This document shows, in pieces, positions 6,513 to 61,309 of a DNA stretch of 64,000 nt. Source of the stretch: a virus (lineage: Duplodnaviria; Heunggongvirae; Uroviricota; Caudoviricetes); IMG/VR virus record IMGVR_UViG_646311924_000007, positions 33,898 to 97,897 of that record; one strand, given 5' to 3'. The notes under the pieces were generated by a model, which was not told the origin of the DNA, searched no databases, and was given only the letters and a program-made list of their open reading frames with translations. Numbering within the stretch: position 1 is the stretch's first letter; every line of letters begins with the position of its first letter. Both the position numbers and the translations under genes were made by a program.

Positions 6513-6699
6513 GTATTTTTAAGTCGCGAATGCTATCTTTTCGCATCATATTGACCTTTTAATCGTTCAGGCTTATAGTTCCGCCGTCGTAGCAAATTCT
6601 GCGACCGGGTTTAGCAGCCTGAATGATTGTGCGGACAGCCGCAGATATCCGATATTGCGGTATTTTTGTGTCCGTAAAACCGCGTTACGCCCAAATTAT

Positions 6700-6776
6700 G
6701 GTGGGGCGTGATGGGGAGGCTTCGGCCTGCTGGTTTCACAATCGCCAGTCTGCTAACCCCGTCACGTCCTGCCACC
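6700..6776 (+). ncRNA. c4: candidate c4-like antisense regulatory RNA
   Basis: GC-rich segment with self-complementary ends (GGTGGGG...CCTGCCACC) between the operator and icd, in the position of P1 c4; has a 7-nt stretch (CTGCTAA) complementary to the icd leader; boundaries approximate. Confidence 0.3.
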
Positions 6777-6826
6777 TGTTTAGCAGCGGGTAGCAGGTTG
6801 TTAAACCTGATTGTGAGGCCGTAACT

Positions 6827-10218: not shown

Positions 10219-10625
10219 TACAATCGTTGCGGGTGCTTGAGGCTATCTGCTTCAGGCATTACCCGAAAAGCAGATAGAAGAAAGCCCCAGATAACATTAC
10301 GCGTCCTGCAAGACGCTTAACATTAATCTGAGGCCACATCTATGCTTAGCATACGTAGATTAGCCTCTTACCGACCAAAAGGTCAAGGAGAAGCAGGCTA
10401 TGAAGCAGCAAAAAGCGATGTTAATCGCTCTGATCGTCATCTGTTTAACCGTCATTGTGACGGCACTGGTAACGAGGAAAGACCTCTGCGAGGTACGAAT
10501 CCGAACCGGCCAGACGGAGGTCACTGTCTTCACAGCCTACGAATCTGAAAGGTAAGAGACCTGGCGGGGAGAGATCCCCGCCACTCTTCGTGTGTCAGGT
10601 ATCCTCAATGCACCCTTTCCTCTCC

Positions 10626-23486: not shown

Positions 23487-24384
23487 GCACTGGAAAAACA
23501 TTACTATTTATAAACTTTCTCGTGAGGCGGATCTGACCGACTTAGAAGATAAAAAGAAAATGATCCTTTTCACGCCATGCGGTAGTCAGGATATGGCCAA
23601 GTTCGGTTTTGTATCGCCATTTGGTGATAATTCTGAAGTTATCGCTATGCATGGAAATGGTTTTATCCTTGTTGAAGCAAAGCGCGAAACAAAAATTCTT
23701 CCCCCGCCGGTTATCCAGCGAGCTATTCAAGAAAAAATTGAAAAACTTGAGCAAGAACAAGCGCGTAAACTGAAGAAAACAGAGAAGGACTCCCTGAAAG
23801 ACGAAGTTCTGCATTCTCTTCTGCCACGGGCTTTTTCAAAGTTTTCTGTTATCCAGGCGATCTACGACGGTTCAACTAAACGTATCTATATCAATGCCAG
23901 CGCGCGGCAGGCAGAGGATATGCTCGCGCTTATGCGTAAGTCTCTGGGTTCTCTTCCTGCTGTTCCCCTGAGTGTTGAAAATCCCATTGAATTAACGCTG
24001 ACCGACTGGGTACGTGATGGTAGTGCTCCACAGGGATTTCAAATGGGGGATGCGGCAGAACTTAAGGCAGTGCTTGAGGATGGCGGTATTGCCCGAGTGA
24101 AAAAGCAGGATTTGGGAAGCGATGAAATTTCCACACACCTGGAAGCTGGCAAGCTCGTCACTAAGTTGGCACTCGACTGGCAGAACCGCATTAAATTTAC
24201 ACTGGACCATAACTTCAGCCTTACCAGCGTCAAATTTGCGGATGAATTGCTTGAGCAGAACTCTGATATTGATAGTGAAGATGTTGCGCAGCGACTGGAC
24301 GCAGATTTCTTCCTGTTGACCAGTGAAATTTCGTGCCTGGTTGATGCTCTGGTAAATGCCCTTGGCGGAGAGGCTAAGCAGTGA
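23479..24384 (+). CDS. hrdC: RdgC-like recombination-associated protein (HrdC)
   Basis: Strong similarity to E. coli RdgC as I recall it ([13 protein letters not shown]..., [34 protein letters not shown]); ATG at 23479 chosen over the longer track ORF starting 23365. Confidence 0.8.
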
Positions 24385-27300
24385 AAGAGCTGTGCTATGG
24401 ATCTGTTTGCAGTGGAATTGAAGCCGCGAGTATTGCCTGGGAACCGTTGGGTATGCGTCCGGCGTGGTTTGCTGAAATCGAGCCTTTTCCATCGGCCGTT
24501 CTTGCGCTCCGCTGGCCCCATGTTGCCAACCTTGGCGACATGAAAAAACTTGCCAAAAAAGTCTTGGCTGGGGAAATCGAATCCCCTGACGTGCTCGTCG
24601 GGGGAACACCATGTTTTACCGCGGGGCATATGGTTCTTTGTAAAAATGGCTATAAACCAATAGAAAATGTTTGCCCTGGTGATTACGTAGTCAGTCATCT
24701 CGGGCGGTTACAACAAGTAAAAAGAGTTGGTTCAAAAATAGCTAATACGGGGTTACTTAATGCCGTTGGGCAGCCTTTAGGTATAAGAACAACCAATGAC
24801 CATCCCTTCCTGGCTGTTCGGTGGAAAGCCCAAAACACCCGGAAAAATGGCACATATTTTAAGAGAGAGTTGTTGTCTGAACCGGAATGGCGAGCAGCAT
24901 GTGATATGCCGGGATATCAATGGTGCGCTCTAACTAATTTCAATATTGCATTTCCAGATATTTGTTCTCGGTTCTTGTCTGAAGAACAGGCTATGTATCT
25001 TGCGGGCGCTTATGTTGGCGATGGATATATTAGGAGATGGAGAGGTAAATCTAAGAAGGCGGTTGTTTTTGGCATAAATTGCCAGAAATTGAGAAAGTTT
25101 CATTGCCGCATACCAGAAAACATATTTTCCGTGGCAAGCGAAATCCGAGGGAGCATCAAAGTAACCTTGAATGATACGTGTTATGCCAATTGGCTTAATG
25201 AACATTTTGGCGAGTTAAGCCATGCTAAGCGTATCCCTGCATGGGTGATGTCGCATCCATTGCGTCATGTGTTTTTACAAGGCTATCTTGATACTGATGG
25301 GACACCAAGTGGTAAAGCGGGATTTAGAATTAATAGTGTTAGTTCTGCGCTTGCTTGGGGCGTTGCGGGGTTGTCACAGACTTGTGGTTATGTTTCTTCG
25401 GTCAGCTTTATTGAAGTTGAGCCCAAAAAAGTGATCGAGGATCGCGTGGTAAATCAACGGAATTATTATCAGGTAACAATCTGCCCGCAGAAATTGTCAC
25501 GTAAATCAAGATTGGCTCATGGAATGCTTTTACGAACAGTCAAAGAGTTTAAATCGGTAGGCCTAGATACTGTATACAACATAGAAGTCGAAGGTGATCA
25601 TTCCTATATCCTCAATGGTGCGGTGGTCCATAACTGTCAGGCATTCAGTATCGCGGGATTACGTGGTGGGCTTGATGATGAGCGTGGCGCGCTAACTTTA
25701 AAGTATGTGGAGCTTGCAAATGCAATTGACGACAAACGGGCTGAGTCATTTCTCAAACCAGCCGTTATCGTCTGGGAAAATGTCCCAGGAGTCTTGTCAT
25801 CGGCAGATAACGCCTTCGGATGTTTCCTTGCCGGATTGGCTGGAGAAGATGTGCCATTTGAACCAGGTGATCGACCTGAATCAGGAAAAAGCAACGCGTT
25901 CTGGCGGTGGGATGGCAAAACCGGTTGCCATGTTCCAAAGTGGCCGCAGTGTGGTTGTATTTATGGACCGCAGCGAAAAGTGGCCTGGAGAATCCTTGAT
26001 GCCCAATACTTCGGAGTGGCACAACGACGCCGACGCGTGTTTGTTGTCGCAAGTGCTCGAACAGATCTCGATCCCGCAACGGTACTTTTTGAGTTCGAAG
26101 GCGTGCGCCGGAATATTGCGCCGAGCAGAGGCGAGGGGAAGGAAACTACCAGATATACTTCAAACATCGCTATCAGAACTTGCGATGATACAAACATAAT
26201 TGCCATGGCACATGGGCAAGGAGGGGCTGAGATAAAAACCGATAATTCGGCACCAACTTTGACATGTAACCATGAAGCACCAATTGTATTGCTCGGCGAC
26301 GGTAGAATGCGCCGTCTTACCCCTGTCGAATGTGAAAGGCTGCAAGGTTTTCCTGATTGGCATACGTTGATCCCTACGGAAAAGCGTAAAAAAGTTAATT
26401 CAGATGAACTGGCATATCTGCACAATCACTATCCAGATTTAAGCGAAGAAGAGGCCGCAATGCTTGCAGCTGACGGACCGCGTTACAAAGCGATCGGCAA
26501 TAGTATGGCAATACCAGTAATGCGCTGGATTGGCGATCGGATTACTAAGGCCGTATGTCGGCAGAAAGAAGGAAGTGAAACAAAAGAGCGAAAAGTTAAA
26601 CCAGCGGCAGAATTCGAACGGTCCATATTCAAATGGGCTGGTGGAAAATTTGGTGTTCTGGAACAAATCTTTCGCTATTTGCCAGAAGGGAAGCGCCTGA
26701 TTGAACCTTTCGTTGGTGGCGGAGCTGTCTTCATGAATGCCGGATACCAGGAAAATCTGCTAAATGATGTGAATGCTGACCTGATTAACTTTTACAAGAC
26801 TCTGCAACGCGAGGCGCATTCACTTATCACTCTGGCACATCGTTTCTTCCAGGACTACAACACACAGGAAGGATACCTGGCAGTACGGAATGCGTTTAAC
26901 AAACAAGTCTATGATGATTTACATCGCGCAGCGGCGTTTTTGTTCCTGAACCGACATTGTTTTAACGGATTGACGCGTTACAACCAGGCCGGTGAGTTCA
27001 ATGTCGGTTATGGGAAGTATAAAACTCCGTATTTCCCATTACAGGAGATGGAAGCCTTCCTCGGTGCGGAAGGGCGGTCTGAGTTTGTATGCGGTGATTT
27101 TGCAGCGGTGATTGAAGCTGCCGGAGAAGGAGATGTCATCTTTTGCGATCCGCCGTATGAACCGCTTCCAAATACAGAGGGATTCACGAACTATTCCGGT
27201 CATGACTTTAAGTTTGAAGAGCAAAAACGCCTGGTGTCTCTGTTGACGGATGCTCATCGTCGAGGTGCAAAGGTTCTCATTACTAACAGTGGCGCGCCAA

Positions 27301-27422
27301 ACATCAGAGAGCTTTATCATGACAGTGGCTTCAGAGTGGAACCTCTTTTTGCCAGACGTTCTGTGTCTTGTAAGGGGGACACTCGAGGTGTAGCTCATGA
27401 CGTTTTGGGTATATTGCTCTAA
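24381..27422 (+). CDS. dmt: bifunctional DNA methyltransferase Dmt (N-terminal C5-cytosine MTase interrupted by an intein; C-terminal Dam-like N6-adenine MTase)
   Basis: C5-MTase motifs I ([13 protein letters not shown]), IV ([12 protein letters not shown] split by insert), VI (ENV), VIII (QRRRRVF), X (GNSMAIPV); C-terminal FVGGGAV and DPPY motifs of Dam-type MTases; GTG start at 24381. Confidence 0.85.
24612..25634 (+). mobile_element. intein with LAGLIDADG homing-endonuclease domain (341 aa; Dmt residues 78-418)
   Basis: Begins with Cys (CFTAGHMVL, block A), block B TTNDHPF, two LAGLIDADG-like motifs ([21 protein letters not shown]), ends VVHN followed by the extein Cys of the PCQ motif. 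Confidence 0.8.
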
Positions 27423-28094: not shown

Positions 28095-28169
28095 GATGGT
28101 GTAGCTCAGCGGTAGAGCAGTTGGCTGTTAACCAACTGGTCGGTAGTTCGAATCCACCCACCATCGCCA
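28095..28169 (+). tRNA. tRNA-Asn (anticodon GUU)
   Basis: Hand-folded cloverleaf: 7-bp acceptor GATGGTG/CACCATC, D-arm GCTCAGCGGTAGAGC, anticodon loop CUGUUAA, T-loop TTCGAAT, 3' CCA encoded; coordinates anchored to overlapping track ORFs. Confidence 0.8.
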
Positions 28170-28174
28170 CTTTA

Positions 28175-28261
28175 GGGGAGTTAGTCCGTAGGGGTAGCGG
28201 GGTAGACTGTAAATCTACTGTCATTGCGACTCGGGTGGTTCGACTCCATCACTCCCCACCA
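28175..28261 (+). tRNA. tRNA-like gene, class II, anticodon GUA (Tyr-like)
   Basis: Acceptor GGGGAGT/ACTCCCC, anticodon stem-loop GTAGA-CUGUAAA-TCTAC, 15-nt variable arm, T-arm GGTGG-TTCGACT-CCATC, CCA encoded; D-arm geometry irregular by 1 nt. Confidence 0.45.
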
Positions 28262-28265
28262 CATT

Positions 28266-28341
28266 GCCGATTTAGCTCAGTTGGTAGAGCAGTCGCTTTG
28301 TAAGCGAATGGTCAGCGGTTCGATCCCGTTAATCGGCACCA
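28266..28341 (+). tRNA. tRNA-Thr (anticodon UGU)
   Basis: Acceptor GCCGATT/AATCGGC, D-arm GCTCAGTTGGTAGAGC, anticodon loop UUUGUAA, T-loop TTCGATC, CCA encoded. Confidence 0.8.
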
Positions 28342-42269: not shown

Positions 42270-42812
42270 GTTCACAGATAAAACACTCTCCAGGAAACCC
42301 GGGGCGGTTCAGACCGGATATAACCGATGATCTGTTCTATCTGGATTTGGACACGGTTATTGCCGGTGATATACGCCCAATCCTTGAGAATCCACCAACC
42401 TGCTTCACCATGCTTAGGGATTTTTACCATCCACAATATCGTGGTAGCGGTGCCCTGTGGATACCAAATAGTGTAAAAGCACATATCTGGAGTTCATTCT
42501 GGCAAGATCCGGAAGGTTGGATTGCTCGTTGTGTCACTACTGAGTGCTGGGGTGATCAGGGGTTCTTACGGAAGGTTATGGGCGATGATACACCAGCATT
42601 TCAGGATCTGTATCCAGGATGGTTTGTAAGTTACAAGGCCGATGTTGTGGAACCTGGTTCAAAATATGCGAGCGCGCGTTACTCCAGGGGGAATGGGGCA
42701 TTACCAAAGGACTGCCGAATAATCTTTTTCCACGGCAAACCGCGGCCTCGCGAAGTGTCAGAGGATTGGCTTCCCCTCATTAGCTCGTTTTTTGAGCGAG
42801 AATCAGAATAAT

Positions 42813-59430: not shown

Positions 59431-59612
59431 TGTTTTTTAACTACCGATGTTACATTGAGCCTGACCTCTTGCGCCTTGAGGCATTTTCGGTTTATGCTTA
59501 TCAGGCACCTCATTAAAACGGGTGCCGGGATTGGCCTCCCGCTTAAGTCTAAGGCGATACAGACGCCGCTCGCGTCTTTTTTTGTATCGGCGTACACGCA
59601 CACCTCTACAAT

Positions 59613-59691
59613 GGTGGGCTGTATGGGGCTACCTTCGGGTAGGCTGGTTACCTTGGACGCCAGTAAGGCCAACTCCGTACAGTCCACCGCC
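59613..59691 (+). ncRNA. candidate second c4-like antisense RNA
   Basis: Begins GGTGGGC and ends CCACCGCC like the module-1 candidate; contains CCTTGGACG, 8/9 complementary to the icd-2 RBS region; boundaries approximate. Confidence 0.3.
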
Positions 59692-59748
59692 AGCAAGATT
59701 GGTCTCTTCTGCGGTGGTTACATACCAACGTCTAAGGAGGCTGCCAAT

Positions 59749-59970: not shown

Positions 59971-60015
59971 GAATGAACCGCCCCGGGTTTCCTGGAGAGT
60001 GTTTTATCTGTGAAC

Positions 60016-60906
60016 TCAGGCTGCCAGATCATCGTTTCCGATGGAAGCATAATAAGCTTTTTCTGCTTCTGCCGGAGGAGTATGGCCCAGCCTTCCCAGC
60101 AATCGTCGATTGTTATACCAGTCCACCCACGTTAGTGTGGCCAGTTCCACTTCTGCACGGTTTTTCCAGCTCTTACGGTGTATTACCTCCGCTTTGTAAA
60201 GACCATTGATGCTCTCAGCCATCGCGTTGTCATACGAGTCGCCTGTACTCCCTGTTGATGCCAGTAATCCGGCTTCTTTTAGTCGCTCCGTATAGGCCAG
60301 TGACACATACTGAGAGCCTTTATCGCTGTGATGGATGGTGCCAGACGGACGACGGGCCCACAACGCCTGCTCCAGCGCATCCAGCACGAATGTCGTTTCC
60401 ATAGACGATGAGACCCGCCACCCCACGATGTATCCGGCAAACACATCAATGATAAACGCCACATAGACGAAGCCCTGCCATGTGCTGACGTAAGTAAAAT
60501 CAGCCACCCACAGCTGGTCAGGTCGTTCTGCCACGAACTGACGGTTTACGCGGTCGCCTGCGGCAACGGCTTTCCGGCTGATGGTCGTACGGACCTTTTT
60601 ACCCCGGAGAACACCGGCAAGTCCCATAACCGCCATGAGACGTGCCACTGTACATCTGGCCACCCTGATTCCTTCCCGTAACAACTGACGCCAGACTTTA
60701 CGCACACCGTACACCTGATGATTTTCATCGTATACGCGCTGTATCTCTCTCTTCAGCCAGTCGTCGTGCTGCGCACGGGCACTGCGTTTATCCGGATGAT
60801 GTCGCTGTTGCTGACAATGGTAATACGTTGACGGGGCAATATGCAGTTCGCTGCATACCGGTCCGACCCCGTACTGCTCACGCAGCTTATCCAGCAGTGG
60901 CATCAT
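60016..60906 (-). CDS. IS3-family transposase OrfB
   Basis: Protein identical to 41379..42269. Confidence 0.85.
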
Positions 60907-61229
60907 TTTTTCCAGAGGCGGTCGAACTCCGCCTTCGCAAAATAAGCGGAAGCCTGGCGAAGGATATCGTTACTGCGGCGCAGTTCACGATTTTCACGTT
61001 CCAGCTCTTTCAGACGCTGACGTTCAGCGCTGGTGAGCCCACCATCACCGCCCCCGGTATCCCGCTCATGCTGGCGAACCCAGACACGCAGAGTCTCCGG
61101 CGTACAGCCAATCTTTGGGGCAATGGAACAAATTGCCGCCCACTGTGAGTCATATTCATCCTGACTTTCCAGAACCATACGAATCGCCCGCTGACGGACT
61201 TCGGGGGAAAAACGAGTATTTTTAGTCAT
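60903..61229 (-). CDS. IS3-family transposase OrfA
   Basis: Protein identical to 41056..41382. Confidence 0.85.
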
Positions 61230-61309
61230 CCTGTTTACCTCTTTCTCAGGGAGTTTAGTCTCCAGGATTTCCGGGGCGGTTCAGAACGTCATTAGTCACC
61301 CGTGAAGAG

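What the first reader, a model, noticed from the sequence alone, without database searches (positions are those of the whole stretch)
24612..25634. Intein with LAGLIDADG endonuclease inserted in the catalytic PCQ motif of the Dmt C5-methyltransferase
Seen: the 1013-aa ORF reads motif I ([13 protein letters not shown]) ... VGGTP | CFTAGHMVL ... VVHN | CQAFSIAG ... ENV ... QRRRR ... GNSMAIPV, then a Dam-like domain (FVGGGAV, DPPY). The 341-aa insert starts with Cys, carries a TxxH block B, two LAGLIDADG-like motifs, and ends His-Asn before the extein Cys. Removing it restores a canonical [12 protein letters not shown] motif IV and a 672-aa bifunctional MTase. Established: these are the defining intein and C5-MTase blocks. 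Inference: the MTase catalytic cysteine doubles as the intein +1 nucleophile, so cytosine methylation would require splicing. I am not aware of an intein described at this position in P1-family dmt.
Basis: partly seen in the sequence, partly recalled or inferred. Interest (0 to 1): 0.85.

Follow-up and report, generated by a model that had tools for sequence, protein, structure and literature searches.

The report
Intein splitting P1 Dmt's catalytic cysteine motif
The DNA methyltransferase gene of this P1-like phage-plasmid is interrupted, exactly at its catalytic cysteine, by a self-splicing mobile protein element (an intein with a homing endonuclease) that is common in E. coli data but hidden under a plain 'Dam methyltransferase' name.

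Summary
Window 24612-25634 encodes a 341-aa in-frame insert in the 1013-aa Dmt ORF (24381-27422). It begins with Cys and ends His-Asn, and the next residue is the Cys of the C5-methyltransferase PCQ motif. Phage P7 Dam (672 aa) and reference P1 Dmt lack exactly these 341 residues.

Profiles, invariant splicing residues across relatives, and a confident predicted structure all identify a canonical class-1 intein with a two-motif LAGLIDADG endonuclease. The closest solved folds are PI-SceI, Tli VMA, PI-PfuI and PI-PkoII. The +1 Cys aligns with catalytic Cys81 of M.HhaI.

It is not unique to this window. It occurs in about 26% of P1-like plasmids, in 151 of 5426 complete E. coli genomes, and in three target-recognition backgrounds. 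The codon before the insertion is CCA in 29/29 intein alleles and in none of the P1-like empty alleles. The intein is 3-5 times less diverse than its flanks, which fits horizontal spread.

Related inteins occupy the same site in at least 72 other C5-methyltransferase clusters. I found no literature report.

Verdict: a real, probably active intein. It is a new member and new insertion site of a known kind. Splicing and homing remain untested.

The parts
24381..27422 (+). dmt precursor ORF (1013 aa plus stop): N-extein, intein, then C-extein holding the rest of the C5-MTase and the Dam domain
   Evidence: It is 99% identical to the dmt of a P1 isolate (OP279344).
24381..24611 (+). N-extein (77 aa): C5-MTase motif I-like [10 protein letters not shown], motif II AEIE, motif III NLGDM, and the GGTP half of motif IV
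   Evidence: PF00145 match.
24612..25634 (+). Intein (341 aa), Cys1 to Asn341
24612..24941 (+). N-terminal Hint splicing lobe (about residues 1-110; boundary approximate), including block A (CFTAGH) and block B TNDH at 24792-24803
   Evidence: Hint_2 match to residues 1-49. C1, T61 and H64 are invariant in relatives. The model shows beta strands over residues 7-107.
24969..25496 (+). LAGLIDADG homing-endonuclease domain (about residues 120-295; boundaries approximate). Motif 1 LAGAYVGDG is at 24999-25025 and motif 2 LQGYLDTDG at 25275-25301
   Evidence: PF14528 E=3e-8. The helix-strand pattern in the model and Foldseek hits to I-DmoI and I-SceI for this part support it. The acidic residues D137 and D229 are conserved.
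25497..25634 (+). C-terminal Hint lobe with blocks F and G ([21 protein letters not shown], 25572-25634)
   Evidence: TIGR01443 is above its cut-off. N341 is invariant.
25635..25637 (+). +1 Cys codon (TGT): the intein's C-extein nucleophile and the C5-MTase catalytic cysteine of PCQ
   Evidence: It aligns with Cys81 of M.HhaI (FPCQAFSISG against [10 protein letters not shown]).
25635..26621 (+). C-extein part 1: C5-MTase motifs IV (CQ) to X with a short, P7-type target-recognition region
26622..27419 (+). C-extein part 2: Dam-type N6-adenine MTase domain (FVGGGAV, DPPY)
   Evidence: PF02086 E=2e-56; TIGR00571 at 249 bits against a cut-off of 115.
24609..24611 (+). Pro(-1) codon CCA: a synonymous marker linked completely to intein presence
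   Evidence: CCA in 29/29 intein alleles. It is CCT, CCG or CCC in 84/85 empty alleles; the one exception is a divergent non-P1 gene.

Best explanation
Window 24612-25634 is a canonical class-1 intein carrying a two-motif LAGLIDADG homing endonuclease. It is inserted in the P1-family dmt gene between Pro77 and the catalytic Cys of C5-MTase motif IV (PCQ).

Shown: the insertion is precise, empty alleles exist, all the splicing and endonuclease signature residues are present, and the predicted fold is that of an intein.

Inferred from the established class-1 mechanism: the 1013-aa precursor splices itself. Cys1 forms a thioester, and the +1 Cys thiol attacks it. Asn341 then cyclises and releases the 341-aa intein. 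An S-to-N shift restores the Pro-Cys peptide bond, giving a 672-aa Dmt with an intact [12 protein letters not shown]. The same thiol then serves as the nucleophile for cytosine C5 methylation, so m5C activity should depend on splicing. The C-terminal Dam domain probably does not depend on it.

Inferred at the DNA level: the freed endonuclease (or the precursor) cuts the uninterrupted site ...GGTACGCCT|TGTCAGGCATTCAG... in an intein-less P1-like element sharing the cell. Repair from the intein-bearing copy then copies in the intein together with adjacent extein bases. I put about 0.85 on its being a splicing-competent intein and about 0.55 on the endonuclease still being active.
For: - Exact 341-aa presence/absence polymorphism: 5-way alignment; 26 intein junctions against 83 empty sites in viral contigs.
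- Profile hits: LAGLIDADG_3, Hint_2, Intein_splicing and TIGR01443. The whole insert also matches an intein inside a phage anaerobic RNR family (phrog_26446, E=1e-11).
- C1, T61, H64, N341 and the +1 Cys are invariant or nearly so in relatives of 29-53% identity.
- The AF2 model has pLDDT 91.6 and pTM 0.89. Its best solved matches are PI-SceI, Tli VMA intein, PI-PfuI and PI-PkoII, at E=3e-16 to 3e-9.
- The +1 Cys aligns with M.HhaI Cys81.
- All 25 complete copies are open and end HN|C. pN/pS is about 0.3, with no change at catalytic splicing residues. Every complete intein-bearing ORF runs to the normal stop.
- Mobility signals: the intein sits in long, short and a third TRD background (11, 11 and 1). 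Association with the intein is r2=1.0 at -1, 0.83 at -22 and 0.61 at -48 to -118. Third-position diversity is 0.010 in the intein against 0.057 (N flank) and 0.019 (C flank) in the same alleles. GC is 42.7% against 54.5% in the N-extein.
Against: - No experiment has been done. Splicing, m5C activity of any Dmt, and endonuclease cleavage are all untested.
- The Hint_2 score is 0.3 bits below Pfam's cut-off, and Intein_splicing is well below its cut-off.
- Flank and intein distances among intein alleles correlate (r=0.64), so much of the distribution is vertical.
- The N flanks of intein alleles are always at least 5 differences from any empty allele. That would also fit a single old insertion followed by ordinary recombination.
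- C5-MTase motif I is non-canonical (SGIEA rather than FxGxG). P1 Dmt is annotated as methylating cytosine only 'perhaps'.
Confidence: 0.8

Rival explanations
1. The intein splices, but its endonuclease is no longer active. Its patchy distribution would then come from one old insertion, vertical descent, and ordinary homologous recombination among P1-like elements.
For: The N-extein flanks of intein alleles form a distinct set, at least 5 differences from any empty allele. Intein and flank distances correlate at r=0.64. No intein-less allele carrying the CCA marker was found, and no direct sign of cleavage exists. Mini-inteins without an endonuclease occur at the same site in relatives, so endonuclease loss does happen in this family.
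Against: Both LAGLIDADG motifs keep their acidic residues. The endonuclease domain is intact in 25/25 copies, with pN/pS about 0.3. The intein is 2-5 times less diverse at third positions than its own flanks and sits in three TRD backgrounds.
Confidence: 0.25
2. The insert is a splicing-dead relic. The C5-MTase domain is permanently disrupted and the protein works only as a Dam methylase, with the intein carried along as a passenger.
For: P1 needs only the Dam activity, for pac-site methylation (review PMC12707154). C5 activity of Dmt has never been shown (annotation note). A related Mannheimia prophage copy has a broken C-extein.
Against: Every residue needed for splicing is present, and these residues are invariant across distant relatives. 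No frameshift or stop occurs in 25 copies. The C5-MTase motifs downstream are fully conserved in intein alleles. A dead insert would be expected to decay or be deleted.
Confidence: 0.07
3. The intein has been domesticated as a post-translational switch (conditional splicing, for example redox control through Cys1 and Cys+1). It would gate cytosine methylation separately from adenine methylation during the P1 life cycle.
For: It sits on the catalytic nucleophile, a placement said to be rare for inteins (PMC4760082). It persists at an intermediate frequency of about 26%. The same site is used in many C5-MTases. Conditional splicing of native inteins is documented in general (PMC4760082).
Against: Nothing in these data indicates regulation. 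Three quarters of P1-like elements do without it. The retained endonuclease and the co-conversion-like footprint point to selfish spread.
Confidence: 0.06
4. The insert is an ordinary domain of this methyltransferase family, or an assembly artefact.
For: None found. Database product names do not mention an intein.
Against: It is absent from 83 empty-site loci and from P1 and P7. It is present at 95-100% identity in 128 plasmid records and 151 complete genomes from independent assemblies. It has an intein fold.
Confidence: 0.01

Closest known systems
PI-SceI (yeast VMA1 intein) and the archaeal VMA, PI-PfuI and PI-PkoII inteins
   Same: Same two-part architecture: a Hint splicing domain interrupted by a two-motif LAGLIDADG endonuclease. 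It has Cys1, a block B TxxH, a C-terminal His-Asn and a +1 Cys. These are the best structural matches (profile hits).
   Different: Only 10-17% sequence identity. The host protein is a DNA C5-methyltransferase rather than an ATPase, RNR or polymerase. At 341 aa it is smaller than PI-SceI (454 aa), and no counterpart of PI-SceI's extra DNA-recognition region was identified. Here the +1 residue is the host enzyme's catalytic nucleophile.
Inteins in actinophage DNA methylases (mycobacteriophage DNMT-1/2; the Dorothy_75 methylase family)
   Same: These are phage orphan methylases carrying LAGLIDADG inteins, present in only a fraction of alleles, inserted in conserved regions, with evidence of horizontal transfer (PMC5050341; PMC9957025).
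   Different: The mycobacteriophage DNMT-1/2 hosts are N6_N4 (amino) methyltransferases (PMC5050341). The Dorothy_75 paper does not state the methylase class in the text I searched. This intein is in a C5-cytosine methyltransferase (PF00145), at the PCQ catalytic motif, in enterobacterial P1-like phage-plasmids.
Metagenomic and prophage C5-MTases with an intein at the same PC|Q site (P0007-P0098; Mannheimia haemolytica prophage P0010)
   Same: Same insertion point, (T/F/S)P|CF...(H/K/F/N)N|C(Q/T), in 72 cluster representatives. They are 26-57% identical to this intein. 65 are full-size and 7 are mini-inteins.
   Different: Their hosts are mostly ~260-aa C5-MTases once the intein is subtracted (inferred from ~600-aa totals; one search lists only PF00145 as the MTase domain), not the bifunctional C5+Dam Dmt. 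None has a published description that I could find, and database names are generic ('Hint domain-containing protein', 'DOD-type homing endonuclease').
Intein-less P1 Dmt (754 aa) and P7 Dam (672 aa)
   Same: The exteins are 91-97% identical, with the same uhr-hrdC-dmt operon and downstream tRNA genes.
   Different: They lack the 1023-bp insert and have CCT rather than CCA at Pro(-1).

Membership tests
Intein (class 1 protein-splicing element, Hint fold) | In-frame insertion that is absent from orthologous alleles whose flanks are contiguous | tested here: met
   P7 Dam and P1 Dmt are gapped over exactly 341 columns. There are 83 empty-site loci against 26 intein loci.
Intein (class 1 protein-splicing element, Hint fold) | N-terminal nucleophile (Cys or Ser) at residue 1 and a block B TxxH | tested here: met
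   Cys1 is present, with T61-N-D-H64. C1, T61 and H64 are invariant in relatives.
Intein (class 1 protein-splicing element, Hint fold) | C-terminal Asn (usually preceded by His), followed by a +1 Cys, Ser or Thr | tested here: met
   The sequence is ...VVHN|C. TIGR01443 scores 25.9-28.9 bits against a cut-off of 15.6. N341 is invariant. All 25 complete copies end HN|C.
Intein (class 1 protein-splicing element, Hint fold) | Hint fold | tested here: met
   This rests on a predicted structure only. The AF2 model has pLDDT 91.6, and Foldseek matches PI-SceI and other solved inteins at E=3e-16 to 3e-9. Hint_2 is 0.3 bits below the Pfam cut-off.
Intein (class 1 protein-splicing element, Hint fold) | Actual self-excision with ligation of the exteins | not testable with these tools
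   This needs protein expression with SDS-PAGE or mass spectrometry.
LAGLIDADG homing endonuclease (monomeric, two-motif) | Two LAGLIDADG motifs, each ending in a conserved acidic residue | tested here: met
   The motifs are LAGAYVGD137G and LQGYLDTD229G. PF14528 scores E=3e-8, above its cut-off. Both Asp residues are conserved in relatives.
LAGLIDADG homing endonuclease (monomeric, two-motif) | Pseudo-dimeric alpha-beta-beta-alpha-beta-beta-alpha fold | tested here: met
   The model shows alternating helices and strands over residues 124-292. Foldseek matches I-DmoI and I-SceI for this domain at E about 1e-4. The structure is predicted, not solved.
LAGLIDADG homing endonuclease (monomeric, two-motif) | Site-specific cleavage of the intein-less allele and super-Mendelian spread (homing) | tested here: inconclusive
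   Population signals fit homing: the linked -1 marker, decay of association with distance, low intein diversity, and several TRD backgrounds. They do not exclude one insertion followed by ordinary recombination. Cleavage itself cannot be tested here.
C5-cytosine DNA methyltransferase (PF00145) | Conserved motifs including motif IV PCQ (catalytic Cys), VI ENV, VIII QxRxR, and IX/X | tested here: met
   PF00145 scores E=7e-30 in 4 stretches. The spliced sequence aligns with M.HhaI across PCQAFSI and the ENV region. Motif I is atypical (SGIEA).
C5-cytosine DNA methyltransferase (PF00145) | Demonstrated m5C formation | not testable with these tools
   The P1 record says only 'perhaps at C5 cytosine'.
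Dam-family N6-adenine methyltransferase (D12 class) | Match to the D12/Dam profile with the FxGxG and DPPY motifs | tested here: met
   PF02086 scores E=2e-56. TIGR00571 scores 249 bits against a cut-off of 114.85. FVGGGAV and DPPY are located.

The most novel reading that the evidence does not exclude
This is the founding described example of a widespread class of inteins that use the catalytic cysteine of DNA C5-methyltransferases as their +1 splicing nucleophile. In P1-like elements, splicing would act as a condition-dependent gate, for example redox control of the Cys1/Cys+1 pair. That gate would switch cytosine methylation on separately from the always-available Dam activity of the same polypeptide, giving the phage-plasmid a post-translational control over its epigenetic and anti-restriction state.
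Probability: 0.06. Interest if true: 0.8.

Novelty: new member of a known kind. Interest (0 to 1): 0.5.

Why it matters
- **A natural intein in an easy system.** The intein sits in a classic, genetically tractable phage-plasmid of E. coli. Intein-bearing and empty alleles coexist at roughly 1:3, so natural homing, co-conversion and splicing can be tested directly in E. coli.
- **An unusual placement.** The intein lies on the host enzyme's catalytic nucleophile. [quoted passage not shown] One thiol must therefore serve both protein splicing and DNA methylation.
- **An annotation blind spot.** The exact protein is seen on at least 1000 contigs and in 151 complete E. coli genomes, but it is named only 'Dam family methyltransferase'. 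The intein and the C5 domain are invisible to anyone reading product names.
- **A wider unnamed family.** The same site is occupied in at least 72 other C5-methyltransferase clusters, so this points to an insertion-site family that has no published description I could find.

Tried and rejected
- **Literature.** Ten full-text searches combined intein with cytosine or C5 methyltransferase, DNA methylase, P1, P1-like, dmt, Mannheimia and prophage (one search failed on a short term). Targeted reads of nine candidate papers followed. No paper describes this intein. The library lacks most subscription journals, and InBase could not be consulted, so absence is not proof. The intein census paper has no supplementary files held.
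- **L024.** This intein locus appeared to have a divergent N-extein. It turned out to be a poly-C assembly artefact and was dropped.
- **Internal late promoter.** I tested whether the promoter annotated inside P7 dam (LPdam2) is conserved, since it could express Dam independently of the intein. The -22 box has 2 mismatches in the window (AAGTTAATT against AAGTTTCTT) and the original is itself only a prediction, so this stays inconclusive.
- **Precise intein loss.** I looked for an empty allele carrying the CCA marker. None was found among the 69 P1-like empty alleles with complete flanks.
- **Ordinary domain.** I considered that the insert is a normal family domain and rejected it on the basis of the empty alleles.
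- **Not run.** I did not use the 1.84-billion-protein representative search, because one search already gave the family picture.
Full report
**1. Observation**

The window has a 1013-aa ORF at 24381..27422 on the + strand. Translating 24612-25634 gives 341 codons that start CFTAGHMVL and end NGAVVHN. The next codon, TGT at 25635-25637, begins CQAFSIAG. Pfam and NCBIfam identify the exteins as a C5-cytosine methyltransferase (PF00145, E=7e-30, split into four stretches) followed by a Dam-type adenine methyltransferase (PF02086 E=2e-56; TIGR00571 at 249 bits against a cut-off of 115).

**2. The insert is an insertion, not a family domain**

Megablast against phage records identifies the gene as dmt of P1-like phages. 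P7 dam is 2019 bp, exactly 3042 minus 1023. In a five-way protein alignment, P7 Dam (672 aa) and reference P1 Dmt (754 aa) are gapped over exactly the 341 residues, with ...VGGTP|CQAFSIAG... contiguous. A P1 isolate (OP279344) and phage vB_EcoM-Ro157c2YLVW carry the insert; phage RCS47 gave the same 3288-bp match pattern.

Two junction-pattern scans of IMG/VR viral contigs found 26 loci with the intein N-junction and 83 with the uninterrupted site.

**3. It is an intein with a LAGLIDADG endonuclease**

- Profile matches on the insert alone: LAGLIDADG_3 E=3e-8 (above cut-off), Hint_2 E=3e-6 (28.1 bits against 28.4), Intein_splicing E=2e-4 (below cut-off), and the TIGR01443 intein C-terminal region E=8e-6 (above cut-off). 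There are also weak matches to intein-containing RNR, GyrA, RFC and DnaB models.
- In PHROGs the whole insert matches the intein embedded in an anaerobic ribonucleotide reductase family (E=1e-11).
- In an alignment with relatives of 29-53% identity, C1, T61 and H64 (block B), N341 and the +1 Cys are invariant or nearly so. So are the Asp-Gly of both LAGLIDADG motifs.
- An AlphaFold2 model built on that alignment is confident (pLDDT 91.6, pTM 0.89).
- Its best solved matches are all endonuclease-containing inteins: PI-SceI (E=3e-16), Tli VMA intein (7e-16, TM 0.64), PI-PfuI and PI-PkoII. The central domain alone matches I-DmoI and I-SceI.

**4. The +1 residue is the methyltransferase catalytic cysteine**

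The conceptually spliced extein aligns [12 protein letters not shown] with AGFPCQAFSISG of M.HhaI, and the +1 Cys falls on HhaI residue 81. That Cys81 is the catalytic nucleophile of M.HhaI is established knowledge, not tested here.

The intein therefore separates motifs I-III and the Pro of motif IV from the catalytic Cys and everything downstream. That m5C activity needs splicing follows from this geometry but is an inference. Dam activity, in a separate C-terminal domain, probably does not need it. A review notes that P1 requires GATC methylation at pac and that dmt is essential only in dam- hosts (PMC12707154). C5 activity of Dmt is annotated only as 'perhaps'.

**5. Distribution**

| Collection | With intein | Reference total |
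|---|---|---|
| PLSDB plasmid records | 128 (95-100% identity) | 491 records with the Dam part of dmt (about 26%) |
| Complete E. coli genomes | 151 | 5426 genomes |

- In the complete genomes, 147 places are on plasmids and 5 on chromosomes, and all are full length.
- The exact 1013-aa protein is on at least 1000 contigs and is named 'Dam family site-specific DNA-(adenine-N6)-methyltransferase'. No record inspected mentions an intein.

**6. Signs of selection and mobility**

- All 25 complete intein copies are open and end HN|C. There are 14 synonymous and 15 non-synonymous segregating changes (pN/pS about 0.3), and none touches a catalytic splicing residue.
- Every complete intein-bearing ORF reads through to the normal stop.
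- The intein occurs equally in the long (P1-type) and short (P7-type) target-recognition backgrounds, 11 each, plus one of a third type.
- The Pro(-1) codon is CCA in 29/29 intein alleles. It is CCT, CCG or CCC in 84/85 empty alleles, and the exception is a divergent non-P1 gene.
- On 57 distinct P1-like flank haplotypes, association with intein presence is r2=1.0 at -1, 0.83 at -22 and 0.61 at -48, -104 and -118. On the 3' side, intein alleles share one of two common haplotypes.
- Third-position diversity is 0.010 in the intein, against 0.057 in the N flank and 0.019 in the C flank of the same alleles.
- The intein's GC content is 42.7%, against 54.5% for the N-extein.

These patterns fit an element that entered from outside with a piece of donor flank and has since moved among dmt backgrounds. 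They do not separate endonuclease-driven homing from ordinary recombination. Intein and flank distances still correlate (r=0.64), and the N flanks of intein alleles are always at least 5 differences from any empty allele.

**7. A wider family**

A profile of the intein plus 8-residue flanks retrieved 128 proteins at E<1e-5, of which about 100 carry PF00145. In 72 cluster representatives both junctions can be read, and both lie at the same place: (T/F/S)P|CF...(H/K/F/N)N|C(Q/T). Of these, 65 inteins are 309-375 aa and 7 are mini-inteins of 141-165 aa.

Two contexts were inspected:
- A phage-like contig with several methylases and a dCMP deaminase.
- A Mannheimia haemolytica prophage in which the C-extein is broken just after CQ and is followed by an HNH endonuclease gene.

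**8. Comparison with what is known**

This is a standard class-1 intein in architecture and presumed chemistry. Published phage methylase inteins are in actinophages: mycobacteriophage DNMT-1/2 are N6_N4 methyltransferases (PMC5050341), and the Dorothy_75 methylase family is a second case whose methylase class is not stated in the text I searched (PMC9957025). I found none in a C5-methyltransferase or in P1 dmt.

[quoted passage not shown] It does not mention methyltransferases.

The literature library is incomplete, and automated domain annotation already flags some relatives ('Hint domain-containing protein', 'DOD-type homing endonuclease'). So the novelty lies in recognition and description, not in kind.

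**9. Verdict**

This is a real and probably functional intein at a new host protein and insertion site: a new member of a known kind.

It is moderately interesting for three reasons:
- It sits on the catalytic nucleophile.
- It is polymorphic in a model E. coli phage-plasmid.
- It is systematically hidden by product naming.

Splicing, endonuclease activity and any regulatory role remain to be shown.

Noticed in passing
window 41001-42311 and 59974-61284: Two 1311-nt copies of an insertion sequence, 100% identical and in inverted orientation. Each contains an ALIL frameshift pseudoknot of the IS3 family (Rfam hits at 41337-41453 + and 60832-60948 -). They bracket 17.7 kb that is P1 backbone (pacA, pacB, pmgS and others), not cargo. 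The segment could invert or move as a composite unit.
   Followed up: partly
window 59505-59694 and 6573-6779: There are two C4 antisense RNA genes. One is with its a1/b1 target (6573-6779), as in P1 immI. The second (59607-59694) is next to an isrK-like sRNA (59505-59582), just inside the right-hand IS copy. A second immunity-type RNA module on a P1-like element is unexplained.
   Followed up: no
window 28095-28341: A tRNA-Tyr (28175-28261) lies between tRNA-Asn and tRNA-Thr downstream of dmt. The same is seen in phage vB_EcoM-Ro157c2YLVW. The P1 reference, P7 and OP279344 have only Asn and Thr there. A further tRNA-Met lies at 30287-30362.
   Followed up: no
L004 (NC_005856 P1 reference) dmt codon 74: Reference P1 Dmt reads VWGTP where the other four aligned alleles read VGGTP, immediately before the catalytic PCQ motif (G to T at position 220 of the gene). 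The laboratory reference allele may have an impaired C5 domain.
   Followed up: no
L001 (OP279344.1, 'Escherichia phage P1 isolate del res del mod', host MG1655 Z1): A record labelled as an engineered P1 isolate carries the intein and a short P7-type target-recognition region, unlike the P1 reference sequence. Either laboratory P1 stocks differ at dmt or the label is loose. Either way, an intein-bearing P1 may already be in laboratory use.
   Followed up: partly
L115 6001-8321 (Mannheimia haemolytica chromosome, prophage): A related intein (47% identity) sits in a C5-MTase whose C-extein ends 19 residues after the +1 Cys (P0010 ends ...VVHN|CQSDKGGTVKASGGGFEWRE). The gene is followed by a separate PF00145 fragment and an HNH_3 endonuclease gene. 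The intein ORF itself is intact and is found on hundreds of contigs. An intein that outlives its host gene, beside a second homing-type nuclease, is odd.
   Followed up: partly
window 26392-26410: This is the position matching the late promoter LPdam2 predicted inside P7 dam, upstream of the Dam domain. The -10 (TGAACT) is kept, but the -22 box has 2 mismatches. In-frame Met codons follow at 26460, 26505 and 26520. If it is used, a Dam-only product could be made independently of the intein.
   Followed up: partly
window 10231-10405: An RNA of the sok antitoxin (hok/sok type) family, 114.8 bits against a gathering score of 59.
   Followed up: no
L024 (IMGVR_UViG_2597489893_000002), about 70-110 nt upstream of the intein junction: A run of C and G replaces about 40 nt of the N-extein and shifts the frame. 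It looks like a sequencing or assembly artefact rather than biology.
   Followed up: yes
P0019, P0093, P0095, P0096, P0098 (proteins): Mini-inteins of 141-165 aa with no endonuclease domain occupy the same PC|Q site in other C5-MTases. This is the pattern expected from the cycle of endonuclease gain and loss.
   Followed up: partly
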